From the human T2T-CHM13v2.0 reference genome, Homo sapiens: DNA of 64,000 nucleotides. Below are positions 1 through 57,318 of the stretch, one piece after another. The stretch's first letter is position 1. The number at the start of each line of letters is the position of its first letter. The stretch lies in NCBI RefSeq assembly GCF_009914755.1, contig NC_060932.1; one strand, given 5' to 3'. Both the position numbers and the translations under genes were made by a program. The notes below the pieces were generated by a model that did not search any database, had not been told where the DNA came from, and saw nothing but the letters and a program-made list of their open reading frames with translations.

Positions 1-2632
1 CACAGCCGAATTCTACCAGAAGTACAAGGAGGAGCTGGTACCATTCCTTCGGAAACTATTCCAATCAACAGAAAAAGAGGGAATCCTCCCTATCTCATTT
101 TATGAGGCCAGCATCATCCTGATCCCAAAGGCTGAGAGAGACACAACCAACAAAGAGAATTTTCGGCCCATATCCCTGAGGAACACCGATGGAAAAATCC
201 TCCATAAAATGCTGGCAAACCGAATCCAGCAGCACATCAAAGAGCTTATCCATTATGATCAAGTGGGCTTCATCCCTGACATGCAAGGCTGGTCCAACAT
301 ATGCAAATCAATAAACATAATCCAGCATATAATCGGAACCAAAGACAGAAACCACGTGATTATCTCAACAGATGCAGAAAAGGCCTTTGACAAAATTCAA
401 CAGCCTTTCATGCCAAAAACTCTCAATAAATTAGGTACTGATGGGACATACCTCAAAATAATAAGGGCTATTTAGGGCAAACCCACAGCCAATATCATAC
501 TGAATGGGCAAAAAGTGGAAGCATTCCCTTTGCAAACTGCCACAAGACAGGGGTGCCCTCTCTCACCACTCCTATTCAACATAGTGTTGGAACTTCTGGC
601 CAGGGCAATCAGGCAGGAGAAAGAAATAAAGAGTAATCAATTAGGAAAAGAGGAAGTCAAATTGTCCCTGTTTGTAGATGACATGATTGAATATTTAGAA
701 AACCCCATCGTCTCAGCCCAAAATCTCCTTAAGCTGATAAGCAACTTCAGCAAAGTCTCAGGATACAAAATCGATGTGCAAAACACACAAGCATTCTCAT
801 ACACCAATAACAGGCAAACAGAGAGCCAAATCATGACTGAGCTCCCATTCACAATTGCTTCAAAGAGAATAAAATTCTGAGGAATCCAACTAACAAGGGA
901 TGCGATGTGCGAAGGACCTCTTCAAGGAGAACTACAAACCACTGCTCCACGAAATAAAAGAGGACACAAACCAATGGAAGAATATTCCATGCTCACGGTT
1001 AGGAAGAATCAGTATCGTGAAAATGGCCATACTGCCCAAGGTATATTATAGATCCAATGCCATCCCCATCAAGCTACCAAGGACTTTCTTCACAGAATTG
1101 GAAAAAACTACTTGAAAGTTTACATGGAACCACAAAAGGGCCCCCACTGCCAAGATAATCCTAAGCCAAAAGAACAAAGGTGGAGGCATCAAGCTACCCG
1201 ACTTCAAACTACACTACAAGCCTACAGTAACCAAACAGCATGCTGTTGGTTGCCTTTTTGGTTACTGTAGACCAATGGAACAGAATAGAGCCCTCAGAAA
1301 TAATACGACACGTCTACAACCGTCGGATCTTTGACAAACCTGACAAAAACAAGAAATGGGGAAAGGATTCCCTATTTAATAAATGGTGCTGGGAAAACTG
1401 GCTAGCCATATGTCCGAAGGTGAAATTGGATCCCTTCCTTACACCTTATGCAAAAGTTTATTCAAGACGGATGAAAGACTTAAATGTTACATCTTAAGCC
1501 ATACAAACCCTAGGAGAAAACCTAGGCAATACCATTCAGGACATAGGCATGGGCAAGGACCTCATGTCTAAAACGCCAAAAGCAAAGGCAACAAAAGCCA
1601 ATATTGACAAACGGCATCTAATTACACTAAAGAGTTTCTGCACAGCTAAAGAAACTCCCATCAGAGTGAACAGGCATGCTACAGAAAGGGAGAAAATTTT
1701 TGCAATCTACTCATCTGACAAAGGGCTAATATCCAGAATCTACTAAGAACTCAAACAGAGTTACAAGAAAAACCAAACAACCCCATCAACAAGTGCGGGA
1801 AGGATATGAAGAGACACTTCTAAAAAGAAGACATTTATGCAGCCAACAGACACATGAAAAAATGCTCATCAACACTGGTCATCAGAGAAATGCAAATCAA
1901 ATCCGCAAAGAGATATCGTCTCACACCAGTTAGAATAGCGATCAATAAAAAAGTCAGGAAACAACAGGTGCTGGAGAGGTAGTGGAGAAATAGGGACACT
2001 TTTACACTGCTGGTGGGACTGTAAACCAGTTCAGCGGTTGTGGAAGATAGTGTGGCGAATCCTCAAGGATCTAGAATTAGAAATACCATTTGACCCAGCC
2101 GTCCCATTACTGGGTATACACCCATAGGACTATAAATCATGCTGCTAAAAGGACACACGCAGACGTATGTTTATTGCGGCACCGTTCACAGTAGCAAAGA
2201 CTTGGAACCAGCCCAGATGTCCATCAATGATAGACTGGATTAAGGAAACGTGGCACAAATACACCGTGGAATACTATGCAGCCATAAAAAAGCATGTGTT
2301 CATGCCCTTCGGAGGGACACGGATGAAGCTGGAAACCATCATTCTTAGCAAACTATCGCAAGGACAAAAAAACCAAACACCGCGTGATCCCACTCATAGG
2401 TGGGAATTGAACTAGGAGAACACTTGGACGCAGAAAGGGGAACATCACACACCGGGGCCTGTCATGGGCGGGGGGAGGGGGAGGGATAACATTAAGAGAT
2501 ATACCTAATGTAAATGACTAGTGAATGGGTGCAGCACACCAACATGGCACGTGCTTACATACGTAATAAACCTGCACGTTGTGCACATGTACCCTAGTAA
2601 TTAAAGTATAATTTTAAAAAAAATGGAAAACG
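1..2632 (+). mobile_element. L1PA LINE-1, 3' part (ORF2 RT/C-terminal remnant, 3'UTR, A-rich tail); cut by the window start
   Basis: ORF2 peptides ([32 protein letters not shown]) broken by stops and frameshifts. G-rich 3'UTR, AATAAA, tail, then TSD AAAGTGTGATC at 2633-2643. Confidence 0.97.
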
Positions 2633-4960: not shown

Positions 4961-7072
4961 AATTTGTGTCAGTAAAAATGGATTCTATACGTGGGATGGT
5001 TTATAAGTATGTGGAAAAATTCTTTGATGGTTTTTCCTTGAAAAAGTGAAACCTAAATCCACTCCGTTTGGATGTGGGCCTATTTACGGTTGTTGCTTCC
5101 TAAACATAAACTACGTTTAGGCTGATATTTCAGACAATGAAACCTTTGAGTGCCCGTAGCGGGAAGATCTCGGTTGCTGAGTGCAGGGAAGGAGGATGTA
5201 ATTCCATCATATATACTCTCTGTGCCTATCGCATTTGGAACCATGCGAGTGATACCTATTTATAAAATAAAATAAACCAAGCAAAAGTACGAACTTAGCA
5301 ACACTACATTGAGTTAATAGAACGGTATCTTGTATTTCTTCTGTCCAGGTATACTTATAAATGCCTGCAGGGATTTCACCACCTCAGGGTGGAGAGACTG
5401 AATGCTTGTGAGGGAATTAGGATGGTGGAATATTGGTGTTACCAGGGAAGGGGGCGGGATGTTTGAAAATGCTATGTTTACTCGTTCTTGGGTTCCAATA
5501 AAGGAGAAACAGGGCACAGGAGTCGGAAGGACTAGTGGCAATAGTGATGAAAGGACCTCCTTATCATGCTGGCAATGTTAATTACCCAGGTGTAGGAAGC
5601 CATACACTGAGGCGGAAGATCGCAAGTCAGAGTGGCCGGCAGGCACAACCTCCTGGCACACCAGAGGCAGGTCTTCAATACCCACTGGTTTCCCCAACAG
5701 GCTGCGTAAGGGACCCTGAGCCACAGTGAGTTGGTCAAATGCTCCTGACAGTGTGGAGAAACCAACAGGCAAAACGTGGGTGCAAAAGTGATGAGACCCC
5801 ACACTTTACACTCGTGGTGACAATGAAGCTATTAAGTAACAGCTTCTCAACCTATGCTGTTTCCTGTTGGATGCACATAATCCATTTGCACTGCAGACAA
5901 TTTTAGGATGTGGTTTACAGTAAGGTGGATGGTACCTTATGGCAAAAATCTCTCAGAAATTTATGTGTGGTTTTAAAGTCATTCCAGTCCTAGCACGTTG
6001 CGCTTTTCAGAGACGCCATAGCTGTTTTTCCCTTTGTAATATCAAAGCAGTAATATCTTCTCTGGAGGCCTGTTGGGTGAATTTAATGGAATCAAGTTAA
6101 GTAGGTGCCAGAACCATTGCTGTTTTCCCTCCATAGCCCTGCCACCCACTGTAAAAAGGTTGATGAGATTACTTAATGATTTCCAATTAAGTTGTATTTC
6201 CAAATATCATGATTTCCATTTTAATGTAGTTGGTATGGAGCTCTGTGAGTGTGTGCTTCTTTTATTATGGATCACGTTCAGCTTCTTTTTATTTGCCTCC
6301 TAGTCATAATAGTAAAACTCTACTCCTCTACTCCGAGGAGTCCCTACCACCCATCTCATCACTTTCCAGCCCAGCACTCTTCATGCTCATTCCTTTAAAG
6401 CATTCAACATTGTGTAAATGAATCTTGGAAGGCAAAAGCTACTGAATTTAGCGAATTTGTGGAGGCATTGCCACAAATCAGCCAGGTGAAGTTTCACACA
6501 ATCGAAGACTGCACAACTCCTAGAAGGCAGCACTATGCTGCAAACCCAGACGGCCACTCTTCTCACCCCTCGTCCGTTTGCTGTTCTGGATAATGAGGTT
6601 CAAAAGTCACCTAGGCAACTGCCAAAATAGCTGAAATGGAGAAAGGGCTTCAGGCTGGTGACTAGCAGAGGTCCACCTGACCCCCGTAAGCTGCTGAACA
6701 AGTAGGGCTGCCGGAAATGTCCCACTAGGGAATTTGGTAGAGACGAAGACATGCTCACCGGACAAGGGTTCCTCCCAGGATACGCCCGAGCGGAAGAAGC
6801 GGGCTCTGAGCCACGCCCTTTCACCCTCCTCTACCCCGCCCTGGGCTGGTGAAGGTGCGCGCCAGGATGTGGACTACTGAGCCCTGAAGAAATAAGTCCT
6901 TCCACTTTGACCCCATGGAGGATTGCCTGTGAGGAACTTAAACGAGTCTACCAGTGTCTAGACACGGGGGCAGGTCTGTCCGGCACAGCAGCTCCCTCAA
7001 GGAGGAGAAGAGTGAGGAGAAAGGAAACTCAAGTCTCACCATTCTGTCCTGGGAGAGAAGAGGAGGATCTCA

Positions 7073-7138
7073 TCTCTCATCTGTCCAAACAAGGCAAGGA
7101 GACTTTCTCTCATCTTTCCAAGCAAGGCAAGGAGACTT
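7073..7138. repeat. 33-bp tandem duplication (every unit)
   Basis: tctctcatctgtccaaacaaggcaaggagactt followed by tctctcatctttccaagcaaggcaaggagactt. Confidence 0.9.
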
Positions 7139-8020
7139 TTTATCATTAGGAAACAAAAAGAATTTAGAAGGAATGAAAGCAGCCCGTAAGGTGAATTCCT
7201 AAGGACTGCCCATTGAAACTGACAAAATTGCCCTTGTTTGATGAGAGGAATGAGCAGAGCATTGATGTGGTGAACAAGGATCTAGTGAGACTTTCCCAGC
7301 ATGTTTCTACCAAAGCTTTATCTAAGCTTCTCAGAACACTCTCCTAATAAGCAGATGTTTGGCCTTTCAGAAAGTCAACAAGCAAAATGCCTTGAGTGTC
7401 CCAAAACACTGATGTTATGATGTGGGCTCCTGACTGGCCTCCTTTTCCTTTGACTGGACCACTGCCACCTCTTGGTAGCCATCGCTTTCATGATGCTTTG
7501 CCATGGAGATCATATTGGTGAAGCCATGTTCCAACTTCCGCTTACAATTTGTCAGAGGGATGCGTCAGGATCGTGATCCCTCCTGTTTAAAATTTCCACT
7601 GATAGCTCTCGTCGTAACTGCAGCTGATCTGGGCACAGTGGTTTTCACAGCCACTGCAGGATTCATCTTCCACATCTTCTCACCTCTTCTTGAAACAAGC
7701 TATACATTCGTAAAGAGTTCATTTCTTCGGGGTAGTGTCCTTACAAGCTTTTCTTAAAACGTCAATGATTTCTTCAATCTTCCACCCAAGCTTCACCATA
7801 AATTTGATGTTTCCTCTTGCTGCAATTTTCGTGGAATTCATGTTGCTCTGATGGGAGTCCTTTTCAGTGGATGTCTCATCCTTCTTAGTGCCTCAAACTA
7901 GATCTAGTTCAGAAAGGTTATCAGAAGTTAGGACAAGTTTATTTTAGTGCAAACCAGTGGAAATCCATGCATAGTTTCTTCACCATGTGCATTTTCTATG
8001 AACCTTTGTAAGACCACCTG
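7135..8020 (-). mobile_element. HSMAR2 mariner DNA transposon, degenerate (5' ITR present, internal deletion, 3'-truncated)
   Basis: The minus strand reads ITR-like caggtggtcttacaaaggttcatagaaaatgca, then ctagtttgaggcactaagaaggat, then a transposase start MNSTKIAARGNIKFMVKLGW and later ggcattttgcttgttgactttctg and ctcattcctctcatcaaacaagggcaatttt. These match the recalled HSMAR2 consensus. Confidence 0.88.
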
Positions 8021-8225
8021 TGTTGAACATTGCCCAAGTCCTGGGAGAGAAGTGGGTGCGGTCCGCTTCCTGTCCTCAATTTGCCCGCAGCGGCGGAGTG
8101 CACAGAGCAGGGAAAGGCAGCCCCAGAGGGATCCCGCCCTCCAGCATGCAGCAGACTGCTGGCCCAGTCCTGGCTCCAAGGGGTGCTGTGTGGGCCCAAG
8201 CAAGTTGACCAACCTCCCTGAACCT

Positions 8226-8500
8226 TAATTTAATCCTAGGTAGCCCAATTCCAGTAGCCATTATAGGACTGCCCTGCAGGGACAGTTACTTAACTCAGGA
8301 AAAGCAACCTAGCTCCAAGTTTAGCAACCGGGAGTTCCAGTTGATTCCATTAGCGCACCCCCTGAGGCATTCCCAAGCTGGAGTCTGGTGGAAGATGAGG
8401 CTCAGTGTGATTGGACTGAAGCACCAACCTATCAAGGAGAAGTCCCACCCAGTCTGCCCTGTGCCTATATAAAGGCGACAAGTGGCGGCCGCAGCACTCA
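8226..8500 (+). promoter_or_regulatory. Putative Pol II promoter of the REXO1L gene (every unit)
   Basis: TATATAAAGG at 8466-8475, inverted CCAAT (ATTGG) at 8410-8414, Inr-like CTCATT at ~8497, DUX4-type TGATTCCATTA at 8342-8352, TAATTTAATCC at 8226-8236. Confidence 0.7.
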
Positions 8501-8503
8501 TTG

Positions 8504-8917
8504 AAGCCGCCAGTTGGGAGAGGAGCAGAGCCAGGCCGGTGCTCCCGAAGGCAGCAAGATGTTGCGAGCCACAGCTCCCTGCTGGTTCCCCCCTGGATAC
8601 CCAGAAGCTAAGAAGGTGGCCGAGGAGGCGGCCCTGGAGGCAAGCCGCCATTTGGGAGGGGAGCAGAGCCAGGCCGGTGCTCCCGAAGGCAGCAAGATGT
8701 TGCGAGCCACAGCTCCCTGCTGGTTCCGCCCTGGATACCCAGAAGCTAAGAAGCTGGCCAAGGAGGCGGCCCCGGAGGCAAGCCGCCATTTGGGAGCGGA
8801 GCAGAGCCCGGCCGGTGCTCCCGAAGGCAGCAAGATGTTGCGAGCCACAGCTCCCTGCTGGTTCCCACCTGGATACCCAGAAGCTAAGAAGGTGGCCGAG
8901 GAGGCGGCCCTCGAGGC
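8504..8917 (+). repeat. 3 x 138-bp (46-codon) tandem repeat spanning the 5' leader and N-terminus (every unit)
   Basis: aagccgcca at 8504, 8642 and 8780; peptide [10 protein letters not shown](P/R)PGYPEAKK three times. Confidence 0.97.
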
Positions 8918-10586
8918 TCCAGAATTCCCACTGCCCTCTCATCAGCCTGCCCAGAGCTTCGGGCTCTGGGTGCCCCAGATGCACAAGCAGGCCTCAGCAT
9001 TTGTGGACATCCAGGCGGAGCCCCAGAACAGGGGTCCGGCGGTGCCCCCAGCGTGGCCCAAGATGGTGACGGAGTCGTGCTACTTCCCTGCGCAGAGGGG
9101 ATCGGCCTGCCGCTTGCCAGCCGCCCCAAGGCTGACAGAGAGGCCCTCGGGAGTCCGCATCTCAGCCCCCAGGAAGAGGAAGACGATCGCCCACTCTTCC
9201 AGCCCTTGCTTGGTCACAGGTTACACAGATGCCAAGAGAACCCGGGTGGCCAGCAGCAGCCAACGCTCCCGTGGCTCCAAGGTCGGCAGACAGCCAGGGA
9301 AGACGCGCAACAGGTCAGGGATGGCATGCAAGACCACCGCCACCACCAGCTCTAAGCGAATCGTCCGTCGTGCATCCTTACCGAGTTTGAGTTTGAAGAA
9401 ACCCATTATCCTCCGAAGCTCTGGGTGCCAAGTCCCCACCGTCCTCCGCCGAGGCTATCTCCAACTGTTCACCGAAGAGTGTCTCAAGTTCTGCGCCTCC
9501 AAGCAGGAGGCCGAGGAGAAGGCGCTGAACGAGGAGAAGGTGGCCTACGACTGCAGCCCCAACAAGAACAGGTACCTGAACGTGGTCCTGAACACCCTCA
9601 AGAGACTGAAGGGCCTGACCCCCAGCTCCATGCCCGGCCTCAGCAGGGCCGCCCTGTACAGCCGCCTCCAGGAGTTCCTGCTCACCCAGGACCAGCTCAA
9701 GGAGAACGGCTACCCCTTCCCGCACCCCGAGCGGCCCGGAGGCGCCGTCCTCTTCACTGGCCAGGGGAAGGGGCCCGGCGACTCCTCCTGCAGGGTCTGC
9801 TGCCGTTGTGGCACCGAGTACCTGGTGTCCTCCTCGGGCCGCTGTGTACGCGACCAGTTGTGTTATTATCACTGGGGGCGGGTCCGCTCGAGCCAGGTGG
9901 CTGGAGGCCGGGTTAGCCAGTACACCTGCTGTGCAGCTGCTCCTGGCTCTGTGGGCTGCCAGGTGGCAAAGCAGCACGTGCGGGACGGCCGCAAGGAGAG
10001 CCTCGATGGCTTCGTGGAGACCTTCAAGAAAGAGTTGTCCAGAGACGCTTATCCAGGAATCTACGCCTTGGACTGTGAGATGTGCTACACCACGCATGGC
10101 CTAGAGCTGACCCGCGTCACCGTGGTGGACGCCGACATGCGAGTGGTGTACGACACCTTCGTCAAGCCCGACAACGAGATCGTGGACTACAACACCAGGT
10201 TTTCCGGAGTCACCGAGGCCGACGTCGCCAAGACGAGCATCACGTTGCCCCAAGTCCAAGCCATCCTGCTGAGCTTTTTCAGCGCCCAAACCATCCTCAT
10301 CGGGCACAGCCTGGAGAGCGACCTGCTGGCCCTGAAGCTCATCCACAGCACCGTGGTGGACACGGCCGTGCTCTTCCCGCACTACCTGGGTTTCCCCTAC
10401 AAGCGCTCCCTCAGGAATCTCGCGGCCGACTACCTGGCACAGATCATCCAGGACAGCCAGGACGGCCACAACTCCAGCGAGGACGCAAACGCCTGCCTGC
10501 AGCTGGTGATGTGGAAGGTCCGACAGCGCGCCCAGATCCAGCCACGCCACCGGTCCGCCTCTCCCGCCGCCCTGGCCTGTCCTTAG
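8559..10586 (+). CDS. REXO1L1: REXO1-like putative 3'-5' exonuclease GOR, 675 aa, intronless (copy 1; L66)
   Basis: First ATG 8559 (the track starts at upstream TTG 8514). DEDDh motifs [14 protein letters not shown] and [12 protein letters not shown]1-type RVCCRCG..CYYHWG..CC..GC domain. The exact paralog name cannot be assigned; family members are often annotated as pseudogenes. Confidence 0.9.
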
Positions 10587-10710
10587 CCCCAGGCCTCTTC
10601 CAAAACCGCCATCAGTCCCGAGAGCTCACCCTGCCCACCTCGCCGCAAAGCGAAAGAAACTGGAGCAGCCGGCGGCAGGAGAGGGCAAAAAGCCAAGAGT
10701 AACCCCAACC

Positions 10711-10920
10711 CCCCACTCCCGGTCCCCCGGAATCCCTGCCGCGGCCCCTCGGGCCTGTCCACATCCCTCTGCCCCTCCCAGACCTCTGTCCTTCCACCAA
10801 TCGCCTCCCGCAGCCCCGAGCCGCCACTCCCAGTCCCCCGAGTCCCTGCCGCGCGCCCTCGCGCCTGTCCACATCCCTCTGCCCATCCGAGACCTCTGTC
10901 CTTACACCACTAGCCACCCC
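10711..10920 (+). repeat. Diverged ~110-bp C-rich tandem duplication 3' of the stop (every unit)
   Basis: ccactccc at 10713 and 10824; cctgtccacatccctctgccc at 10754 and 10864. Confidence 0.85.
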
Positions 10921-11024
10921 ACGTGGGACTTCCATGGCTTCTGAGTACAAGGCCAGCCCCCCGGCCCACCAGCTTTCGGAATGCCTGCTTACCTCTTTTT
11001 CTGTAGAGGCACCACAGGGAGGTG

Positions 11025-11150
11025 GGTGAAGCACTTCGGCTCTGGAGTTACAGATCTGGGTTCAAGGCCAAATTCCACCACTTACTAGGTTTGTAATATT
11101 GGACAGATAACGTCTTTGCGCTTCTACCTTTTGGTCTTTAAAGTGTGATC
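11025..11150 (+). mobile_element. MIR SINE, 5' half (interrupted by the L1; repeated in every unit)
   Basis: ggctctggagttacagatctgggttcaag..ccaccacttactagg resembles the MIR tRNA-like head. Confidence 0.7.
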
Positions 11151-14100
11151 AAAAGAGACTTAGACTCCCACATAGTAATAATAATAATAATGGCAAACTT
11201 AACACCCCACTGTCAACATTAGACACACCAACGAGACAGAAAGTTAGAAAAGGATATCCGGGAATTGAGCTCAGCTCTGCACCAAGCGGACCTAGGAGAC
11301 ATCTACAGAACGCTCCACCCCAAATCAACAGAATATACATTCTTCTCAGCACCACATCACACTTATTTCCACATTGACCACATAGTTGGAAGTAAAGCAC
11401 TCCTCAGTAAAAGTAAAATAACAGAAATTATTACAAACGGTCTCTCAGACCACATTGCAATCACACTAGACCTCAGGATTGAGAAACTCACTCAAAACCG
11501 CTCAACTGCATGGAAACCGGACAAGCTGCTCCTGAATGAGTACTGGGTACATAACGAAATGAAGGCAGAAATAAAGATATTCTCTGAAAGCAATGAGAAC
11601 AAAGACACAACATACCAGAATCTCTGGGACACATTTAAAGCAGTGTGTAGAGGGAAATTTATAGCACTAAATGCCCACAAGGGAAAGCAGGAAAGATCAA
11701 AAATGCATACCCTAACATCACCATTAAAAGGATGAGAGAAGCAAGAGCAAACACATTCAAAAGCTAGCAGAAGGCAAGAAATAACTAAGATCCGAGCAGA
11801 ACTGAAGGAGATAGAGACCCAAAAAACCCTTCAAAAAATCAATGAATCCAGGAGCGGGTTTTTTGAAACCATCAACAAAATTGATAGACCACTAGCAAGA
11901 CTATTAAAGAATGAAAGAAAGAAGAATCAAGCAGATGCAATAAAAAATGATAAAGGGGATATCACCACTGATCCCCCAGAAGTACAAACTACCATGAGAG
12001 AATACTGTCAACACCTCTAGGCAAACAAACTCGGAAATCTAGAAGAAATGAATAAATTCCTGGACACATGCAACCTCCCCAGAGTAAACCAGGAAGAAGT
12101 TGAATGCCTGAATAGACCAATAACAGGCTCTGAAATTGAGGCAATAATTAATAGCCTATCAAGCAATAAAACTCCAGGACCAGACGGATTCACAGCCGAA
12201 TTCTACCAGAAGTACAAGGAGGAGCTGGTACCATTCCTTCGGAAACTATTCCAATCAACAGAAAAAGAGGGAATCCTCCCTATCTCATTTTATGAGGCCA
12301 GCATCATCCTGATCCCAAAGGCTGAGAGAGACACAACCAACAAAGAGAATTTTCGGCCCATATCCCTGAGGAACACCGATGGAAAAATCCTCCATAAAAT
12401 GCTGGCAAACCGAATCCAGCAGCACATCAAAGAGCTTATCCATTATGATCAAGTGGGCTTCATCCCTGACATGCAAGGCTGGTCCAACATATGCAAATCA
12501 ATAAACATAATCCAGCATATAATCGGAACCAAAGACAGAAACCACGTGATTATCTCAACAGATGCAGAAAAGGCCTTTGACAAAATTCAACAGCCTTTCA
12601 TGCCAAAAACTCTCAATAAATTAGGTACTGATGGGACATACCTCAAAATAATAAGGGCTATTTAGGGCAAACCCACAGCCAATATCATACTGAATGGGCA
12701 AAAAGTGGAAGCATTCCCTTTGCAAACTGCCACAAGACAGGGGTGCCCTCTCTCACCACTCCTATTCAACATAGTGTTGGAACTTCTGGCCAGGGCAATC
12801 AGGCAGGAGAAAGAAATAAAGAGTAATCAATTAGGAAAAGAGGAAGTCAAATTGTCCCTGTTTGTAGATGACATGATTGAATATTTAGAAAACCCCATCG
12901 TCTCAGCCCAAAATCTCCTTAAGCTGATAAGCAACTTCAGCAAAGTCTCAGGATACAAAATCGATGTGCAAAACACACAAGCATTCTCATACACCAATAA
13001 CAGGCAAACAGAGAGCCAAATCATGACTGAGCTCCCATTCACAATTGCTTCAAAGAGAATAAAATTCTGAGGAATCCAACTAACAAGGGATGCGATGTGC
13101 GAAGGACCTCTTCAAGGAGAACTACAAACCACTGCTCCACGAAATAAAAGAGGACACAAACCAATGGAAGAATATTCCATGCTCACGGTTAGGAAGAATC
13201 AGTATCGTGAAAATGGCCATACTGCCCAAGGTATATTATAGATCCAATGCCATCCCCATCAAGCTACCAAGGACTTTCTTCACAGAATTGGAAAAAACTA
13301 CTTGAAAGTTTACATGGAACCACAAAAGGGCCCCCACTGCCAAGATAATCCTAAGCCAAAAGAACAAAGGTGGAGGCATCAAGCTACCCGACTTCAAACT
13401 ACACTACAAGCCTACAGTAACCAAACAGCATGCTGTTGGTTGCCTTTTTGGTTACTGTAGACCAATGGAACAGAATAGAGCCCTCAGAAATAATACGACA
13501 CGTCTACAACCGTCGGATCTTTGACAAACCTGACAAAAACAAGAAATGGGGAAAGGATTCCCTATTTAATAAATGGTGCTGGGAAAACTGGCTAGCCATA
13601 TGTCCGAAGGTGAAATTGGATCCCTTCCTTACACCTTATGCAAAAGTTTATTCAAGACGGATGAAAGACTTAAATGTTACATCTTAAGCCATACAAACCC
13701 TAGGAGAAAACCTAGGCAATACCATTCAGGACATAGGCATGGGCAAGGACCTCATGTCTAAAACGCCAAAAGCAAAGGCAACAAAAGCCAATATTGACAA
13801 ACGGCATCTAATTACACTAAAGAGTTTCTGCACAGCTAAAGAAACTCCCATCAGAGTGAACAGGCATGCTACAGAAAGGGAGAAAATTTTTGCAATCTAC
13901 TCATCTGACAAAGGGCTAATATCCAGAATCTACTAAGAACTCAAACAGAGTTACAAGAAAAACCAAACAACCCCATCAACAAGTGCGGGAAGGATATGAA
14001 GAGACACTTCTAAAAAGAAGACATTTATGCAGCCAACAGACACATGAAAAAATGCTCATCAACACTGGTCATCAGAGAAATGCAAATCAAATCCGCAAAG

Positions 14101-20210: not shown

Positions 20211-20748
20211 TGTTGAACATTGCCCAAGTCCTGGGAGAGAAGTGGGTGCGGTCCGCTTCCTGTCCTCAATTTGCCCGCAGCGGCGGAGTGCACAGAGCAG
20301 GGAAAGGCAGCCCCAGAGGGATCCCGCCCTCCAGCATGCAGCAGACTGCTGGCCCAGTCCTGGCTCCAAGGGGTGCTGTGTGGGCCCAAGCAAGTTGACC
20401 AACCTCCCTGAACCTTAATTTAATCCTAGGTAGCCCAATTCCAGTAGCCATTATAGGACTGCCCTGCAGGGACAGTTACTTAACTCAGGAAAAGCAACCT
20501 AGCTCCAAGTTTAGCAACCGGGAGTTCCAGTTGATTCCATTAGCGCACCCCCTGAGGCATTCCCAAGCTGGAGTCTGGTGGAAGATGAGGCTCAGTGTGA
20601 TTGGACTGAAGCACCAACCTATCAAGGAGAAGTCCCACCCAGTCTGCCCTGTGCCTATATAAAGGCGACAAGTGGCGGCCGCAGCACTCATTGAAGCCGC
20701 CAGTTGGGAGAGGAGCAGAGCCAGGCCGGTGCTCCCGAAGGCAGCAAG

Positions 20749-22776
20749 ATGTTGCGAGCCACAGCTCCCTGCTGGTTCCCCCCTGGATACCCAGAAGCTA
20801 AGAAGGTGGCCGAGGAGGCGGCCCTGGAGGCAAGCCGCCATTTGGGAGGGGAGCAGAGCCAGGCCGGTGCTCCCGAAGGCAGCAAGATGTTGCGAGCCAC
20901 AGCTCCCTGCTGGTTCCGCCCTGGATACCCAGAAGCTAAGAAGGTGGCCAAGGAGGCGGCCCCGGAGGCAAGCCGCCATTTGGGAGCGGAGCAGAGCCCG
21001 GCCGGTGCTCCCGAAGGCAGCAAGATGTTGCGAGCCACAGCTCCCTGCTGGTTCCCACCTGGATACCCAGAAGCTAAGAAGGTGGCCGAGGAGGCGGCCC
21101 TCGAGGCTCCAGAATTCCCACTGCCCTCTCATCAGCCTGCCCAGAGCTTCGGGCTCTGGGTGCCCCAGATGCACAAGCAGGCCTCAGCATTTGTGGACAT
21201 CCAGGCGGAGCCCCAGAACAGGGGTCCGGCGGTGCCCCCAGCGTGGCCCAAGATGGTGACGGAGTCGTGCTACTTCCCTGCGCAGAGGGGATCGGCCTGC
21301 CGCTTGCCAGCCGCCCCAAGGCTGACAGAGAGGCCCTCGGGAGTCCGCATCTCAGCCCCCAGGAAGAGGAAGACGATCGCCCACTCTTCCAGCCCTTGCT
21401 TGGTCACAGGTTACACAGATGCCAAGAGAACCCGGGTGGCCAGCAGCAGCCAACGCTCCCGTGGCTCCAAGGTCGGCAGACAGCCAGGGAAGACGCGCAA
21501 CAGGTCAGGGATGGCATGCAAGACCACCGCCACCACCAGCTCTAAGCGAATCGTCCGTCGTGCATCCTTACCGAGTTTGAGTTTGAAGAAACCCATTATC
21601 CTCCGAAGCTCTGGGTGCCAAGTCCCCACCGTCCTCCGCCGAGGCTATCTCCAACTGTTCACCGAAGAGTGTCTCAAGTTCTGCGCCTCCAAGCAGGAGG
21701 CCGAGGAGAAGGCGCTGAACGAGGAGAAGGTGGCCTACGACTGCAGCCCCAACAAGAACAGGTACCTGAACGTGGTCCTGAACACCCTCAAGAGACTGAA
21801 GGGCCTGACCCCCAGCTCCATGCCCGGCCTCAGCAGGGCCGCCCTGTACAGCCGCCTCCAGGAGTTCCTGCTCACCCAGGACCAGCTCAAGGAGAACGGC
21901 TACCCCTTCCCGCACCCCGAGCGGCCCGGAGGCGCCGTCCTCTTCACTGGCCAGGGGAAGGGGCCCGGCGACTCCTCCTGCAGGGTCTGCTGCCGTTGTG
22001 GCACCGAGTACCTGGTGTCCTCCTCGGGCCGCTGTGTACGCGACCAGTTGTGTTATTATCACTGGGGGCGGGTCCGCTCGAGCCAGGTGGCTGGAGGCCG
22101 GGTTAGCCAGTACACCTGCTGTGCAGCTGCTCCTGGCTCTGTGGGCTGCCAGGTGGCAAAGCAGCACGTGCGGGACGGCCGCAAGGAGAGCCTCGATGGC
22201 TTCGTGGAGACCTTCAAGAAAGAGTTGTCCAGAGACGCTTATCCAGGAATCTACGCCTTGGACTGTGAGATGTGCTACACCACGCATGGCCTAGAGCTGA
22301 CCCGCGTCACCGTGGTGGACGCCGACATGCGAGTGGTGTACGACACCTTCGTCAAGCCCGACAACGAGATCGTGGACTACAACACCAGGTTTTCCGGAGT
22401 CACCGAGGCCGACGTCGCCAAGACGAGCATCACGTTGCCCCAAGTCCAAGCCATCCTGCTGAGCTTTTTCAGCGCCCAAACCATCCTCATCGGGCACAGC
22501 CTGGAGAGCGACCTGCTGGCCCTGAAGCTCATCCACAGCACCGTGGTGGACACGGCCGTGCTCTTCCCGCACTACCTGGGTTTCCCCTACAAGCGCTCCC
22601 TCAGGAATCTCGCGGCCGACTACCTGGCACAGATCATCCAGGACAGCCAGGACGGCCACAACTCCAGCGAGGACGCAAACGCCTGCCTGCAGCTGGTGAT
22701 GTGGAAGGTCCGACAGCGCGCCCAGATCCAGCCACGCCACCGGTCCGCCTCTCCCGCCGCCCTGGCCTGTCCTTAG
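20749..22776 (+). CDS. REXO1L1: REXO1-like exonuclease GOR, 675 aa (copy 2)
   Basis: Intact ORF, same as copy 1 except V66. Confidence 0.9.
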
Positions 22777-32400: not shown

Positions 32401-32938
32401 TGTTGAACATTGCCCAAGTCCTGGGAGAGAAGTGGGTGCGGTCCGCTTCCTGTCCTCAATTTGCCCGCAGCGGCGGAGTGCACAGAGCAGGGAAAGGCAG
32501 CCCCAGAGGGATCCCGCCCTCCAGCATGCAGCAGACTGCTGGCCCAGTCCTGGCTCCAAGGGGTGCTGTGTGGGCCCAAGCAAGTTGACCAACCTCCCTG
32601 AACCTTAATTTAATCCTAGGTAGCCCAATTCCAGTAGCCATTATAGGACTGCCCTGCAGGGACAGTTACTTAACTCAGGAAAAGCAACCTAGCTCCAAGT
32701 TTAGCAACCGGGAGTTCCAGTTGATTCCATTAGCGCACCCCCCGAGGCATTCCCAAGCTGGAGTCTGGTGGAAGATGAGGCTCAGTGTGATTGGACTGAA
32801 GCACCAACCTATCAAGGAGAAGTCCCACCCAGTCTGCCCTGTGCCTATATAAAGGCGACAAGTGGCGGCCGCAGCACTCATTGAAGCCGCCATTTGGGAG
32901 AGGAGCAGAGCCAGGCCGGTGCTCCCGAAGGCAGCAAG

Positions 32939-34966
32939 ATGTTGCGAGCCACAGCTCCCTGCTGGTTCCCCCCTGGATACCCAGAAGCTAAGAAGGTGGC
33001 CGAGGAGGCGGCCCTGGAGGCAAGCCGCCATTTGGGAGGGGAGCAGAGCCAGGCCGGTGCTCCCGAAGGCAGCAAGATGTTGCGAGCCACAGCTCCCTGC
33101 TGGTTCCGCCCTGGATACCCAGAAGCTAAGAAGGTGGCCAAGGAGGCGGCCCCGGAGGCAAGCCGCCATTTGGGAGCGGAGCAGAGCCCGGCCGGTGCTC
33201 CCGAAGGCAGCAAGATGTTGCGAGCCACAGCTCCCTGCTGGTTCCCACCTGGATACCCAGAAGCTAAGAAGGTGGCCGAGGAGGCGGCCCTCGAGGCTCC
33301 GGAATTCCCACTGCCCTCTCATCAGCCTGCCCAGAGCTTCGGGCTCTGGGTGCCCCAGATGCACAAGCAGGCCTCAGCATTTGTGGACATCCAGGCGGAG
33401 CCCCAGAACAGGGGTCCGGCGGTGCCCCCAGCGTGGCCCAAGATGGTGACGGAGTCGTGCTACTTCCCTGCGCAGAGGGGATCGGCCTGCCGCTTGCCAG
33501 CCGCCCCAAGGCTGACAGAGAGGCCCTCGGGAGTCCGCATCTCAGCCCCCAGGAAGAGGAAGACGATCGCCCACTCTTCCAGCCCTTGCTTGGTCACAGG
33601 TTACACAGATGCCAAGAGAACCCGGGTGGCCAGCAGCAGCCAACGCTCCCGTGGCTCCAAGGTCGGCAGACAGCCAGGGAAGACGCGCAACAGGTCAGGG
33701 ATGGCATGCAAGACCACCGCCACCACCAGCTCTAAGCGAATCGTCCGTCGTGCATCCTTACCGAGTTTGAGTTTGAAGAAACCCATTATCCTCCGAAGCT
33801 CTGGGTGCCAAGTCCCCACCGTCCTCCGCCGAGGCTATCTCCAACTGTTCACCGAAGAGTGTCTCAAGTTCTGCGCCTCCAAGCAGGAGGCCGAGGAGAA
33901 GGCGCTGAACGAGGAGAAGGTGGCCTACGACTGCAGCCCCAACAAGAACAGGTACCTGAACGTGGTCCTGAACACCCTCAAGAGACTGAAGGGCCTGACC
34001 CCCAGCTCCATGCCCGGCCTCAGCAGGGCCGCCCTGTACAGCCGCCTCCAGGAGTTCCTGCTCACCCAGGACCAGCTCAAGGAGAACGGCTACCCCTTCC
34101 CGCACCCCGAGCGGCCCGGAGGCGCCGTCCTCTTCACTGGCCAGGGGAAGGGGCCCGGCGACTCCTCCTGCAGGGTCTGCTGCCGTTGTGGCACCGAGTA
34201 CCTGGTGTCCTCCTCGGGCCGCTGTGTACGCGACCAGTTGTGTTATTATCACTGGGGGCGGGTCCGCTCGAGCCAGGTGGCTGGAGGCCGGGTTAGCCAG
34301 TACACCTGCTGTGCAGCTGCTCCTGGCTCTGTGGGCTGCCAGGTGGCAAAGCAGCACGTGCGGGACGGCCGCAAGGAGAGCCTCGATGGCTTCGTGGAGA
34401 CCTTCAAGAAAGAGTTGTCCAGAGACGCTTATCCAGGAATCTACGCCTTGGACTGTGAGATGTGCTACACCACGCATGGCCTAGAGCTGACCCGCGTCAC
34501 CGTGGTGGACGCCGACATGCGAGTGGTGTACGACACCTTCGTCAAGCCCGACAACGAGATCGTGGACTACAACACCAGGTTTTCCGGAGTCACCGAGGCC
34601 GACGTCGCCAAGACGAGCATCACGTTGCCCCTAGTCCAAGCCATCCTGCTGAGCTTTTTCAGCGCCCAAACCATCCTCATCGGGCACAGCCTGGAGAGCG
34701 ACCTGCTGGCCCTGAAGCTCATCCACAGCACCGTGGTGGACACGGCCGTGCTCTTCCCGCACTACCTGGGTTTCCCCTACAAGCGCTCCCTCAGGAATCT
34801 CGCGGCCGACTACCTGGCACAGATCATCCAGGACAGCCAGGACGGCCACAACTCCAGCGAGGACGCAAACGCCTGCCTGCAGCTGGTGATGTGGAAGGTC
34901 CGACAGCGCGCCCAGATCCAGCCACGCCACCGGTCCGCCTCTCCCGCCGCCCTGGCCTGTCCTTAG
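32939..34966 (+). CDS. REXO1L1: REXO1-like exonuclease GOR, 675 aa (copy 3; Q565L)
   Basis: Intact ORF; CAA>CTA at 34632. Confidence 0.9.
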
Positions 34967-44590: not shown

Positions 44591-45128
44591 TGTTGAACAT
44601 TGCCCAAGTCCTGGGAGAGAAGTGGGTGCGGTCCGCTTCCTGTCCTCAATTTGCCCGCAGCGGCGGAGTGCACAGAGCAGGGAAAGGCAGCCCCAGAGGG
44701 ATCCCGCCCTCCAGCATGCAGCAGACTGCTGGCCCAGTCCTGGCTCCAAGGGGTGCTGTGTGGGCCCAAGCAAGTTGACCAACCTCCCTGAACCTTAATT
44801 TAATCCTAGGTAGCCCAATTCCAGTAGCCATTATAGGAATGCCCTGCAGGGACAGTTACTTAACTCAGGAAAAGCAACCTAGCTCCAAGTTTAGCAACCG
44901 GGAGTTCCAGTTGATTCCATTAGCGCACCCCCTGAGGCATTCCCAAGCTGGAGTCTGGTGGAAGATGAGGCTCAGTGTGATTGGACTGAAGCACCAACCT
45001 ATCAAGGAGAAGTCGCACCCAGTCTGCCCTGTGCCTATATAAAGGCGACAAGTGGCGGCCGCAGCACTCATTGAAGCCGCCAGTTGGGAGAGGAGCAGAG
45101 CCAGGCCGGTGCTCCCGAAGGCAGCAAG

Positions 45129-56780: not shown

Positions 56781-57318
56781 TGTTGAACATTGCCCAAGTC
56801 CTGGGAGAGAAGTGGGTGCGGTCCGCTTCCTGTCCTCAATTTGCCTGCAGCGGCGGAGTGCACAGAGCAGGGAAAGGCAGCCCCAGAGGGATCCCGCCCT
56901 CCAGCATGCAGCAGACTGCTGGCCCAGTCCTGGCTCCAAGGGGTGCTGTGTGGGCCCAAGCAAGTTGACCAACCTCCCTGAACCTTAATTTAATCCTAGG
57001 TAGCCCAATTCCAGTAGCCATTATAGGACTGCCCTGCAGGGACAGTTACTTAACTCAGGAAAAGCAACCTAGCTCCAAGTTTAGCAACCGGGAGTTCCAG
57101 TTGATTCCATTAGCGCACCCCCTGAGGCATTCCCAAGCTGGAGTCTGGTGGAAGATGAGGCTCAGTGTGATTGGACTGAAGCACCAACCTATCAAGGAGA
57201 AGTCGCACCCAGTCTGCCCTGTGCCTATATAAAGGCGACAAGTGGCGGCCGCAGCACTCATTGAAGCCGCCAGTTGGGAGAGGAGCAGAGCCAGGCCGGT
57301 GCTCCCGAAGGCAGCAAG

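What the first reader, a model, noticed from the sequence alone, without database searches (positions are those of the whole stretch)
8226..8500. DUX4/PRD-homeodomain sites plus TATA: candidate embryonic-genome-activation nuclease gene array
Seen: TGATTCCATTA (= TAATGGAATCA, fits the DUX4 consensus TAAYBBAATCA) at 8342-8352, near-match TAATTTAATCC (contains the K50 homeodomain site TAATCC) at 8226-8236, CCAAT at 8410 and TATA at 8466, all invariant in five copies. Known: DUX4 activates multicopy cleavage-stage gene families (ZSCAN4, PRAMEF, TRIM43, MBD3L, RFPL4). Inference: this supposed pseudogene array could be a copy-number-tuned, burst-expressed RNA exonuclease system in early embryos, germline or FSHD muscle, overlooked because its reads multimap.
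Basis: partly seen in the sequence, partly recalled or inferred. Interest (0 to 1): 0.8.

Follow-up and report, generated by a model that had tools for sequence, protein, structure and literature searches.

The report
Promoter of the GOR exonuclease array
The flagged stretch looks like the ordinary TATA-type promoter in front of each copy of the human REXO1L1/GOR exonuclease gene, which is probably a real gene whose RNA is present in 4-cell embryos, but nothing I could check shows that DUX4 switches it on.

Summary
The window is the human 8q21.2 REXO1L1/GOR 12.19-kb tandem array.

**Observation:** all four motifs sit at the stated coordinates in 5 of 5 window units and 40 of 40 fetched copies. 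Their invariance is uninformative, because copies differ at only 4 of 359 promoter positions.

**Anatomy:** the motifs lie 50-240 bp upstream of a TATA box that is 93 bp before a conserved ATG. This is a CpG-poor promoter unrelated to the parent REXO1 CpG-island promoter.

**The gene:** the 675-aa frame is open in nearly all copies. Anthropoid orthologues share its start, and the DEDDh exonuclease domain is conserved, so "pseudogene" is doubtful.

**DUX4:**
- Only 8342-8352 fits the consensus, and it is not the optimal core.
- 8226-8236 fails at the base read by homeodomain 2.
- The one embryo dataset I could read lists REXO1L1 RNA as strongly decreased from 4-cell to 8-cell. It is absent from both accumulated lists.
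- Unlike 5 of 5 maternal control transcripts, it is also absent from the oocyte-to-4-cell decreased list.
- DUX4 occupancy and induction could not be tested.

**Verdict:** real promoter and likely real gene. The early-embryo link is partly supported; DUX4 control is unsupported.

The parts
8226..8236 (+). TAATTTAATCC. A homeodomain-type site holding the K50-type core TAATCC (8231-8236), 230-240 bp upstream of the TATA box. It has one mismatch to the DUX4 consensus, at the last base.
   Evidence: consensus and the HD2 = TGAT rule from passages of PMC12376486
8342..8352 (-). TAATGGAATCA. An exact match to the DUX4 ChIP consensus TAAYBBAATCA, 114-124 bp upstream of the TATA box. The core GG differs from the optimal CT.
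8368..8373 (+). CATTCC (M-CAT/TEAD-like hexamer). Listed only to show that other factor-like words also occur here.
   Evidence: the motif name is recalled
8410..8414 (-). Inverted CCAAT box (ATTGG), 52-56 bp upstream of the TATA box.
8466..8475 (+). TATA box TATATAAAGG, 93 bp upstream of the first ATG.
8493..8503 (+). Predicted transcription start zone (CA at 8495-8496 and CTCATTG at 8497-8503, 30-34 bp after the TATA box). Inferred, not mapped.
   Evidence: inference from usual TATA-to-start spacing
8504..8917 (+). Three tandem copies of a 138-bp unit. Each holds 5'-leader-like sequence plus an in-frame ATG ([10 protein letters not shown]). The two extra copies add 92 residues that the other primate proteins retrieved do not have.
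8559..10586 (+). REXO1L1/GOR open reading frame, 675 aa, intronless.
9399..9629 (+). Best-matching stretch of the Elongin A binding-protein 1 domain (PF15870, residues 281-357).
10068..10505 (+). DEDDh 3'-5' exonuclease domain (PF00929, residues about 504-649), with the D-x-E, D and H-x4-D motifs aligned to SDN1 and ISG20.
6084..6094 (+). Second, identical TAATGGAATCA, 2.4 kb upstream of the promoter. It heads an AT-rich patch with several TAAT/ATTA cores (to about 6230).
20416..20690 (+). The same promoter segment in unit 2.
32606..32880 (+). The same promoter segment in unit 3.
44796..45070 (+). The same promoter segment in unit 4.
56986..57260 (+). The same promoter segment in unit 5.

Best explanation
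Window 8226-8500 is the proximal promoter that each 12.19-kb unit of the 8q21.2 array carries in front of its REXO1L1/GOR gene.

GOR is an intronless, REXO1-derived gene. It kept the parent's start codon, its Elongin-A-binding domain and its DEDDh exonuclease domain. It lost about 600 internal residues and sits behind a different promoter: CpG-poor, with a strong TATA box and an inverted CCAAT box, as in tissue-restricted genes. The parent has a CpG-island promoter.

The promoter is methylated and presumably silent in somatic-type cells. The gene's RNA is present in human 4-cell blastomeres and is lost by the 8-cell stage. The most economical reading is germline or very early embryonic expression, followed by clearance at the major wave of genome activation. 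It is not induction by that wave.

The two homeodomain-like words upstream may take input from a paired-like homeodomain factor. Töhönen et al. list GSC, OTX2 and PITX2 among maternal factors. DUX4 itself is also possible. Equally, the words may be chance matches in a TATA/CCAAT promoter.

Shown: the motifs, the spacing, the open frames, the domain, the orthologues and the published embryo table entry.
Inferred: the start site, promoter activity, the cell type of expression, and any factor binding.
For: Anatomy:
- The TATA box at 8466 is 93 bp before the ATG at 8559, the inverted CCAAT box is 52-56 bp upstream of it, and CpG o/e in 8100-8500 is 0.06-0.4.
- Promoter DNA 8000-8520 matches nothing outside the array: 72 candidates, 40 scored, all on the chr8 array.
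- It has no internal paralogue in the unit.
- It shows no similarity to REXO1 exon 1 plus 677 bp upstream, best E 0.26. That parental region has GC 0.67, CpG o/e 0.87 and no TATA.

Gene status:
- The 675-aa frame is open in 5 of 5 window units.
- 63 of 66 scored genome copies have no stop.
- Of 40 fetched copies, 38 give 675 aa, one 673 and one 629. The last two carry in-frame deletions of 6 and 138 bp.
- RNase_T scores 33.1 bits against a cut-off of 24. SDN1 matches at E 1.3e-28 and ISG20 at 1.9e-16, with catalytic motifs aligned.
- Chimpanzee, gorilla, gibbon, Aotus, Callithrix, Saimiri and Cebus GOR proteins all begin [13 protein letters not shown].
- Human versus New World monkey identity is 91-93% in the exonuclease domain and 64-66% in the N-terminal part.
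- Variable sites among the 40 copies run at 11-15 per kb in promoter and frame, against 34 per kb in the 3.2 kb upstream. That is 38 observed against 65.9 expected, binomial P 1.6e-6.

Expression:
- Tohonen 2015 Supplementary Data 5 lists transcript end FE527666 (REXO1L1, CDS, gene strand) as decreased from 4-cell to 8-cell, score -67.2, q 0, rank 78 of 1,511. It sits beside WEE2, NLRP4, PATL2 and TUBB8.
- Logsdon 2021 reports the 3-kb REXO1L1 part of each unit as methylated in CHM13.
Against: - No 5' end has been mapped. RefSeq gives only coding parts, and the published transcript end lies inside the coding sequence.
- The embryo evidence is one row in one study, from uniquely mapped reads of a multicopy locus.
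- The REXO1L1 end is not in the oocyte-to-4-cell decreased list, although 5 of 5 maternal control ends are (TUBB8, UHRF1, NLRP4, WEE2, PATL2). So a plain maternal-store pattern is not fully met. New synthesis before the 4-cell stage, or poly(A)-tail effects on oligo-dT capture, remain possible.
- Within the array, non-synonymous to synonymous changes are 21:10 against 1540:485 sites. This does not differ from neutrality (P 0.19).
- Overall human to New World monkey protein identity is only about 80%.
- Other expression reports look like genomic-DNA carry-over.
- Protein evidence is a single peptide with one spectrum match.
Confidence: 0.6

Rival explanations
1. DUX4, or a closely related paired-like factor, binds the 8342-8352 site (and perhaps 6084 and 8226). 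It fires all copies in a short burst around genome activation, in germ cells, or in FSHD muscle. In refined form, the burst falls between fertilisation and the 4-cell stage, when DUX4 protein is present, and the RNA decays by the 8-cell stage.
For: - There is an exact consensus match 114-124 bp upstream of a TATA box and a second identical one 2.4 kb upstream. That is 2 per unit against about 0.1 expected.
- The consensus is confirmed in print.
- The word TAATGGAATCA occurs 37,680 times in this genome against 1,248 for its reversed control. On the first 111 Mb of chr1 it runs at only about 0.9 per Mb, so most copies sit in dense blocks.
- Young 2013 reports HSATII satellites as DUX4-bound and massively DUX4-activated. 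I infer that these dense blocks are such satellites, but I did not test it.
- The REXO1L1 transcript end holds its level to the 4-cell stage, unlike 5 of 5 maternal controls, and then drops.
- Vuoristo 2022 describes DUX4 mRNA enriched in zygotes and DUX4 staining rising to the 4-cell stage, then cleared.
- Multi-mapping reads were discarded in the main ChIP-seq analysis.
Against: - The transcript end is absent from the 32 ends accumulated from oocyte to 4-cell and from the 129 accumulated from 4-cell to 8-cell, where ZSCAN4, LEUTX, DUXA, TRIM48 and PRAMEF1 sit.
- It is absent from the held supplementary tables of the 8C-like-cell paper and from the DUX4-knockdown embryo table, which was cut when stored.
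- Of 7 papers holding both words, none of the 3 I opened names REXO1L as a DUX4 target, nor do the titles or abstract openings of the other 4.
- The core GG differs from the optimal and most active TAATCTAATCA.
- The 8226 site breaks the TGAT half-site of homeodomain 2.
- Only about 1.2% of DUX4-bound regions start a transcript.
- Known targets usually carry several strong sites. This last point is recalled.
Confidence: 0.15
2. The array is transcriptionally inert repeat DNA. On this reading the motifs, the TATA box and the open frames are relics kept alike by recent amplification and homogenisation, and the expression signals are artefacts of a locus with roughly 100-250 diploid copies.
For: - Copies are 99.5-99.9% alike, so open frames could simply be young.
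- The within-array N:S ratio is not different from neutral.
- The gene part is methylated in CHM13.
- REXO1L genes appear in 'up-regulated' lists next to DUX4, DUB3/USP17, TCEB3C, FAM90A and NBPF, the other highest-copy intronless arrays. This is what DNA carry-over would give.
- UniProt evidence level 5 and a single peptide.
Against: - Open frames with the same start, and mostly the same stop, occur in apes and in four New World monkey genera. The catalytic domain is far better conserved than the N-terminal part.
- The embryo transcript end is strand-specific and falls significantly between two stages whose cells are both diploid. DNA carry-over would not do this.
- Diversity in promoter plus frame is lower than in the spacer.
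Confidence: 0.2

Closest known systems
DUX4-activated multicopy cleavage-stage families (ZSCAN4, PRAMEF, TRIM43/48, MBD3L2, RFPL4, KHDC1L)
   Same: A primate-restricted multicopy gene. It has a consensus DUX4-type word close to a TATA-type start, RNA present in cleavage embryos, and somatic silencing.
   Different: Those genes are in the accumulated lists at the 4-cell and 8-cell stages, whereas REXO1L1 is in the decreased list. There is one non-optimal consensus site near the start rather than a cluster. No induction or binding data exist. The tandem array has about 70 near-identical units per haplotype.
ELOA3 tandem retrogene array on chromosome 18 (PMC10664989, passages read)
   Same: Both are intronless copies of a broadly conserved parent (calls ELOA3 primate-specific; REXO1-like GOR proteins also turn up outside primates). 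Both are repeated in a copy-number-variable tandem array, homogenised by concerted evolution, and annotated as pseudogenes yet open. The parents are physical partners by name, Elongin A and Elongin A binding-protein 1 (REXO1). Both arrays are largest in gorilla and chimpanzee.
   Different: ELOA3 has biochemical and genetic evidence of function, and its coding exon is CpG-rich behind an HSMAR2 element. GOR has no functional test and has a CpG-poor TATA promoter. That paper does not mention REXO1 (0 occurrences).
D4Z4/DUX4 macrosatellite
   Same: A retrogene with its own promoter and frame in every unit of a large, polymorphic, somatically repressed array. Its expression is tied to the earliest embryo.
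   Different: D4Z4 units are 3.3 kb and GC-rich, and need a distal poly(A) signal. The GOR unit is 12.19 kb, and its first AATAAA lies about 1 kb after the stop, in repeat-masked DNA that I read as L1-like but did not run through a repeat library, within every unit.
REXO1 (parent gene, chromosome 19)
   Same: It shares the start codon region, the Elongin-A-binding domain and the DEDDh exonuclease domain. Identity to macaque REXO1 is 82% in the exonuclease domain.
   Different: REXO1 is multi-exon, with its first two coding exons 20 kb apart, about 1,180 aa, and a CpG-island promoter. GOR is intronless, lacks about 600 internal residues, and has an unrelated TATA promoter.

Membership tests
Direct DUX4 target promoter | A match to the ChIP-derived site TAAYBBAATCA close to the start site | tested here: met
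   8342-8352 (-) is an exact match, 114-124 bp upstream of the TATA box. The consensus is confirmed in passages of PMC12376486. The 8226 site fails at the last base.
Direct DUX4 target promoter | DUX4 occupancy in ChIP-seq | tested here: inconclusive
   A search of the Young 2013 peak table for chr8 86.4-87.0 Mb gave 0 hits. However, the file text stops at about 4.0 million characters, and phrase matching across cells is unproven. About 12 peaks would be expected there by genome average. That study also dropped multiply-mapping reads.
Direct DUX4 target promoter | Induction when DUX4 is expressed | not testable with these tools
   The two relevant tables of Vuoristo 2022 were too large to read. 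Geng 2012, Hendrickson 2017, Whiddon 2017 and Yao 2014 are not held. No main text links REXO1L to DUX4 as a target.
Direct DUX4 target promoter | Transcript accumulates at the 4-cell or 8-cell stage | tested here: not met
   REXO1L occurs once in the 7 supplementary files of Tohonen 2015, in the list of ends decreased from 4-cell to 8-cell. It is absent from both accumulated lists.
RNA polymerase II TATA/CCAAT core promoter | TATA box about 25-35 bp upstream of the start site | tested here: inconclusive
   TATATAAAGG is at 8466, and initiator-like CA/CTCATTG lies 30-34 bp downstream. No mapped 5' end is available.
RNA polymerase II TATA/CCAAT core promoter | CCAAT box about 60-100 bp upstream of the start site | tested here: met
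   ATTGG at 8410-8414 is about 80-90 bp before the predicted start. The usual position is recalled.
DEDDh 3'-5' exonuclease (RNase T / REX1 type) | Domain match above the curated cut-off | tested here: met
   PF00929 at E 1e-7, 33.1 bits against a cut-off of 24, on residues 481-675. It was not listed when the whole protein was scanned at E <= 0.01.
DEDDh 3'-5' exonuclease (RNase T / REX1 type) | The five catalytic residues D, E, D, H, D | tested here: met
   [16 protein letters not shown] and GHNSSEDA align with the matching motifs of SDN1 (5z9x) and ISG20 (1wlj). They are invariant across the 12 aligned proteins. Which residues are catalytic is recalled.
DEDDh 3'-5' exonuclease (RNase T / REX1 type) | Nuclease activity | not testable with these tools
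Processed retrogene with a recruited promoter | Intronless copy of a multi-exon parent | tested here: met
   The 2,028-bp frame is continuous. The parent's first two coding exons lie 20 kb apart on chr19. D'Apice 2015 calls the transcript monoexonic.
Processed retrogene with a recruited promoter | Upstream DNA unrelated to the parent's promoter | tested here: met
   Best blastn E is 0.26 between 8000-8700 and REXO1 exon 1 plus 677 bp upstream. CpG o/e is 0.24 for GOR against 0.87 for REXO1.
Processed retrogene with a recruited promoter | Poly(A) remnant and target-site duplications | tested here: not met
   No A-run of 8 or more occurs in 10587-12400. Target-site duplications were not looked for. 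Age could have erased both.
Maternal transcript cleared at genome activation | Falls between the 4-cell and 8-cell stages | tested here: met
   Score -67.2, q 0, rank 78 of 1,511.
Maternal transcript cleared at genome activation | Behaves like other stored transcripts from oocyte to 4-cell | tested here: not met
   5 of 5 control transcript ends (TUBB8, UHRF1, NLRP4, WEE2, PATL2) are in the oocyte-to-4-cell decreased list. FE527666 is not.

The most novel reading that the evidence does not exclude
GOR is a copy-number-tuned RNA exonuclease of the human oocyte-to-embryo transition. About 70 promoters per haplotype would fire in a short window before or at the 4-cell stage through paired-like homeodomain input. 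That input could be DUX4 while its protein is present, or maternal K50 factors acting at TAATCC. The resulting enzyme would help clear or trim RNA as the embryo switches to its own genome. It might work together with the similarly amplified Elongin A3 array through its retained Elongin-A-binding domain. Copy number (53-326 per haplotype among humans, higher still in chimpanzee, bonobo and gorilla) would then set the dose.
Probability: 0.12. Interest if true: 0.75.

Novelty: new member of a known kind. Interest (0 to 1): 0.4.

Why it matters
The 8q21.2 array is one of the largest tandem repeats in the human genome. It is a recurrent neocentromere site, and it is labelled a pseudogene cluster.

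If each unit is a working gene with its own promoter, active only around fertilisation, several hundred kilobases to megabases of "repeat" would be a dosage-variable enzyme system. That would parallel the recent reassessment of ELOA3. It would also give a concrete reason to remap early-embryo and DUX4 data to complete assemblies with multi-mapper-aware counting.

As it stands, the DUX4 link is only a motif match. The solid results here are the promoter anatomy, the evidence that the gene is probably not dead, and an overlooked row in a published embryo table.

Tried and rejected
**Sequence leads that led nowhere**
- I asked whether the two TAATGGAATCA sites are arms of an inverted duplication. 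Their flanks are unrelated.
- I asked whether the promoter has an older copy inside the unit. There is none, only trivial 26-27-nt matches. The 24-nt resemblance at 6523-6546 did not extend.
- I asked whether the promoter is a dispersed repeat. There is no match outside the array.
- I asked whether the promoter derives from the REXO1 promoter or leader. It does not.
- The within-array test for coding constraint gave 21 N: 10 S, not significant. A post hoc split by region was not pursued.

**Supplement searches for REXO1L that found nothing or were inconclusive**
- Young 2013: 12 of 19 files searched, and the peak table searched by coordinates (inconclusive).
- Vuoristo 2022: the 5 held files were searched, but Tables S1 and S2 were unreadable and Table S3 was cut.
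- Jagannathan 2019: 1 small file.
- Sha 2020: 4 held files, one of them unreadable.
- Taubenschmid-Stowers 2022: 4 files.

**Papers I could not open**
- Six id look-ups found no held paper. I was aiming at Yao 2014, Hendrickson 2017 (under a PMC id recalled from memory), Geng 2012 (two tries), Whiddon 2017 and Tyson 2014.
- The PIRAT paper was blocked by the cap on papers.

**Full-text searches that gave nothing relevant**
- REXO1L with 8-cell: 0 papers.
- REXO1L with genome activation: 0 papers.
- REXO1L with oocyte: 1 paper, whose title and abstract concern an osteosarcoma pseudogene classifier (not opened).
- REXO1L with embryo: 19 papers; the one I opened (D'Apice 2015) and the titles and abstract openings of the others show no early-embryo expression study.
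- REXO1L with testis: 5 papers held, 4 listed (one is a duplicate version); passages of 3 were read for other terms and did not bear on testis expression of GOR, and the fourth (an HCC methylation study) was not opened.
- 'exonuclease GOR': 6 papers; only the melanoma proteomics paper bears on human GOR (opened), the others judged by title and abstract opening.

**Not attempted**
- I did not score the sites with a DUX4 weight matrix, because no matrix is available offline.
Full report
**What the window is.**
The hub annotation places the window in T2T-CHM13 chr8 at 86.43-86.49 Mb. Tandem-repeat and ORF scans show five head-to-tail units of 12,190 bp. Each unit has a 2,028-bp open frame and a 3 x 138-bp repeat at the frame's 5' end. 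This is the 8q21.2 REXO1L1/GOR array.

From passages of Logsdon 2021 (PMC8099727): the unit is 12.192 kb, the array spans 863 kb with 67 full and 7 partial units in CHM13, humans carry 53-326 copies, the site is a recurrent neocentromere, and the 3-kb REXO1L1 part of each unit is methylated while the rest is hypomethylated. Passages of Brahmachary 2014 (PMC4063668) give 108-266 diploid copies in HapMap samples and about 400-860 in chimpanzee, bonobo and gorilla. Warburton 2008 (PMC2588610) describes the same array.

**The observation.**
- TAATTTAATCC at 8226-8236 (+).
- TGATTCCATTA at 8342-8352, which is TAATGGAATCA on the minus strand.
- ATTGG at 8410-8414, a CCAAT box on the minus strand.
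- TATATAAAGG from 8466.

The pattern TAAYBBAATCA hits 10 times in the window against 0.51 expected. TAATTTAATCC hits once per unit.

A 22-mer around the promoter site is exact at 70 places in the genome, all in the array. All four motifs and the upstream site are present in 40 of 40 copies that I fetched.

The invariance carries no weight. Those 40 copies differ from one another by only about 2-50 substitutions in 5.8 kb. The 359-bp promoter has four variable positions (8269, 8363, 8445, 8513). The chance that four random positions miss all 37 motif bases is 0.65.

**Anatomy of the segment.**
- The TATA box lies 93 bp upstream of the first ATG (8559).
- Initiator-like CA/CTCATTG lies 30-34 bp after the TATA box.
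- The inverted CCAAT box lies 52-56 bp before it.
- The two homeodomain-like words lie 114-124 and 230-240 bp before it.
- The segment is CpG-poor (o/e 0.06-0.4 in 8100-8500). The 3' half of the frame is CpG-rich (o/e 0.6-1.1).
- The 521 bp at 8000-8520 match nothing outside the array: 72 candidates, 40 scored, all in the array.
- They have no second copy within the unit.
- The flanks of the 6084 and 8342 sites are unrelated, so the pair is not a duplication.

This is the layout of a TATA/CCAAT promoter of a tissue-restricted gene. No mapped 5' end was available to me, so the start site is inferred.

**The gene behind it.**
The frame is open in 5 of 5 window units, although RefSeq annotates only two of them, one as a truncated 318-codon piece. 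Genome-wide, 63 of 66 scored copies have no stop. Of the 40 fetched copies, 38 give 675 aa, one 673 (a 6-bp deletion) and one 629 (an in-frame loss of one 138-bp repeat).

The protein carries the Elongin A binding-protein 1 domain (PF15870, E 2e-38) and a C-terminal DEDDh exonuclease domain. That domain scores 33.1 bits on PF00929 against a cut-off of 24. It matches plant SDN1 at E 1.3e-28 and human ISG20 at 1.9e-16, with the D-x-E, D and H-x4-D motifs aligned.

A protein search found GOR-type proteins of 572-690 aa in chimpanzee, gorilla, gibbon, Aotus, Callithrix, Saimiri and Cebus. All of them begin [13 protein letters not shown]. Gorilla and the four New World monkey proteins (Aotus, Callithrix, Saimiri, Cebus) end at the human stop, while the chimpanzee and gibbon proteins read on past it. 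Human versus New World monkey identity is 91-93% in the exonuclease domain, 84-86% in the middle domain and 64-66% in the N-terminal part.

Macaque REXO1 begins MLRSTGFF... and aligns again only from about residue 640. GOR is therefore REXO1 minus about 600 internal residues, with the parental start codon kept.

The parent's first two coding exons lie 20 kb apart on chr19. Its upstream 677 bp is a TATA-less CpG island (GC 0.67, o/e 0.87) with no similarity to the GOR promoter (best E 0.26). GOR is thus an intronless derivative behind a different, recruited promoter.

The two extra 138-bp repeats, absent from the other primate proteins retrieved, turn what was leader sequence into 92 extra residues with two more in-frame ATGs.

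**Selection within the array.**
Among the 40 copies there are 147 variable columns:
- 34 per kb in 5000-8199.
- 11 per kb in the promoter.
- 15 per kb in the frame.

Nucleotide diversity is 0.0057, 0.0015 and 0.0011 respectively. Having 38 variable sites in 8200-10800 against 65.9 expected under uniform density gives a binomial P of 1.6e-6.

This fits constraint on promoter plus frame. Uneven mutation or conversion is not excluded, since 29 of the upstream sites sit in 7400-7800. The coding test itself is weak: 21 non-synonymous to 10 synonymous changes against 1540:485 sites, P 0.19. The case for a live gene rests mainly on the cross-primate frames.

**DUX4.**
A 2025 review (PMC12376486, passages) confirms three points. 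TAAYBBAATCA is the ChIP-derived site. TAATCTAATCA is the optimal and most active sequence. Homeodomain 1 reads TAAT and homeodomain 2 reads TGAT.

The 8342 site fits the consensus but has GG where the optimum has CT. The 8226 site has ...ATCC, which breaks the TGAT half-site. It does hold TAATCC, the K50-type core (that name is recalled).

At one mismatch or fewer the unit has 8 DUX4-like sites against 3.8 +/- 2.1 in shuffles, a modest excess. The exact 11-mer occurs 37,680 times in the genome against 1,248 for its reversed control. On the first 111 Mb of chr1 it runs at only about 0.9 per Mb, so most copies lie in dense blocks. I infer that these blocks are satellites. Young 2013 (PMC3836709, passages) reports HSATII as DUX4-bound and strongly activated, so this variant may well be bindable. 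I did not test that link.

The same paper states that about 1.2% of bound regions start a transcript, that multiply-mapping ChIP reads were removed, and that RNA reads with more than 20 locations were dropped.

**Expression evidence.**
Full-text searches found no paper linking REXO1L to DUX4 as a target. Of the 7 papers holding both words I opened 3, and judged the rest by title and abstract opening. REXO1L with 8-cell gave 0 papers, with genome activation 0, and with oocyte 1 paper, judged irrelevant from its title and abstract opening.

The supplements of Tohonen 2015 (PMC4569847; all 7 files searched) hold one row: transcript end FE527666, chr8:86786050-86787723, minus strand, 'CDS', REXO1L1, score -67.2, q 0. 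The file is Supplementary Data 5, 'significantly decreased from 4-cell to 8-cell'. The row ranks 78 of 1,511, among WEE2, NLRP4, NLRP8, PATL2, TUBB8, UHRF1 and GTSF1. It is in neither accumulated list, which is where ZSCAN4, LEUTX, DUXA, TRIM48 and PRAMEF1 are. So the RNA exists in 4-cell blastomeres and is lost at the major wave. This is the opposite of what an activation-wave target should do.

One detail cuts the other way. Five of five maternal control ends from the same neighbourhood are also in the oocyte-to-4-cell decreased list of 33,793 rows, but FE527666 is not. Its level per cell is therefore held through two divisions. That could mean new synthesis before the 4-cell stage, when Vuoristo 2022 (PMC8990217, passages) describes DUX4 protein rising and then clearing. 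It could also reflect poly(A) lengthening of a stored RNA in an oligo-dT method, or simply low power. I cannot separate these.

Other searches were negative or inconclusive:
- The 8C-like-cell paper's four held files have no REXO1L.
- The DUX4-knockdown embryo table of Vuoristo 2022 has none, but it was cut, and the two DUX4-induction tables were too large to read.
- The Young 2013 peak table gave no hit for chr8 86.4-87.0 Mb, but that search is probably invalid.

**Cautions on other 'expression' reports.**
D'Apice 2015 (PMC4422118, passages) reports RT-PCR signal in cancer lines and induction by X-rays. A PBMC array study and an exosome RNA-seq study list REXO1L genes as strongly 'up' together with DUX4, DUB3/USP17, TCEB3C, FAM90A and NBPF. 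These are the other highest-copy intronless arrays. I read this as genomic-DNA carry-over, not co-regulation. One melanoma proteomics paper reports a single GOR peptide with one spectrum match.

**Verdict.**
The segment is best explained as the recruited TATA/CCAAT promoter of a probably live, REXO1-derived exonuclease gene that is repeated about 70 times per haplotype, with RNA in the earliest human embryo. The specific DUX4 and genome-activation mechanism rests on one non-optimal motif match, and the only stage-resolved data I could read contradict it.

The closest precedent is the ELOA3 tandem retrogene array (PMC10664989, passages). Its parent, Elongin A, is by name the binding partner of REXO1. 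That paper does not mention REXO1.

Noticed in passing
window 8559-10586, 20749-22776, 32939-34966, 45129-47156, 57319-59346: All five units carry an intact 675-aa frame. RefSeq models only two of them in this window, one as a truncated coding part (9630-10586). The annotation of the array is uneven (against the hub table).
   Followed up: yes
window 8504-8917 and equivalents; L014: The 138-bp unit (leader plus ATG plus 26 codons) is present three times in human, adding 92 residues that the chimpanzee, gorilla, gibbon and New World monkey proteins retrieved lack. One of 40 fetched copies has only two repeats, still in frame at 629 aa. Units spaced about 12,050 bp apart elsewhere in the array probably share this.
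   Followed up: partly
window 5000-10800 across L009-L048: Variable sites among copies are 2-3 times denser in the spacer upstream (34 per kb) than in promoter and frame (11-15 per kb). There is a hot patch of 29 variable sites in 7400-7800. The cause could be constraint, conversion tracts or local mutation rate. It was not resolved.
   Followed up: partly
window 647-657 (and each unit): A PU.1-type word AAAGAGGAAGT (motif recalled) sits in a repeat-masked part of the unit. A PNAS 2022 paper on the lincRNA PIRAT mentions REXO1L 18 times according to the search listing. I could not open it. From memory it describes PU.1 being diverted to REXO1L pseudogene repeats in monocytes.
   Followed up: partly
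literature, not a coordinate: REXO1L genes are co-listed as strongly 'up-regulated' with DUX4, DUB3/USP17L, TCEB3C, FAM90A and NBPF in a PBMC array study and an exosome RNA-seq study. These are the highest-copy intronless arrays, so the pattern looks like genomic-DNA carry-over and should not be read as DUX4 co-expression.
   Followed up: partly
window 9399-9629 (Elongin-A-binding domain): GOR keeps the Elongin A binding-protein 1 domain. Elongin A3 is itself encoded by a primate tandem retrogene array. Both arrays reach their highest copy numbers in gorilla and chimpanzee. This may be a co-amplified partner pair. The ELOA3 paper does not mention REXO1.
   Followed up: no
whole genome G000: The 11-mer TAATGGAATCA occurs 37,680 times against 1,248 for its reversed control. 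On the first 111 Mb of chr1 it runs at about 0.9 per Mb, so most copies must lie in dense, presumably satellite, blocks.
   Followed up: partly
window 6084-6230: An AT-rich patch 2.3-2.5 kb upstream of the promoter holds the second exact DUX4-consensus word, a one-mismatch site at 6161 (-), and several TAAT/ATTA cores. It could be an enhancer or just AT-rich spacer.
   Followed up: no
window 10584-10586 and downstream to about 10900: The human stop TAG lies where the chimpanzee and gibbon proteins read on (W) for about 100 more residues, which match the human downstream sequence. New World monkey and gorilla proteins stop as human does. The first AATAAA after the stop is at 11570, in repeat-masked DNA that looks L1-like by eye (no repeat library was run).
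   Followed up: partly
window 8295-8942 (-): A 215-aa antisense frame spans the promoter and the 138-bp repeats in every unit. It is probably a by-product of GC-rich repeated sequence. It was not examined.
   Followed up: no
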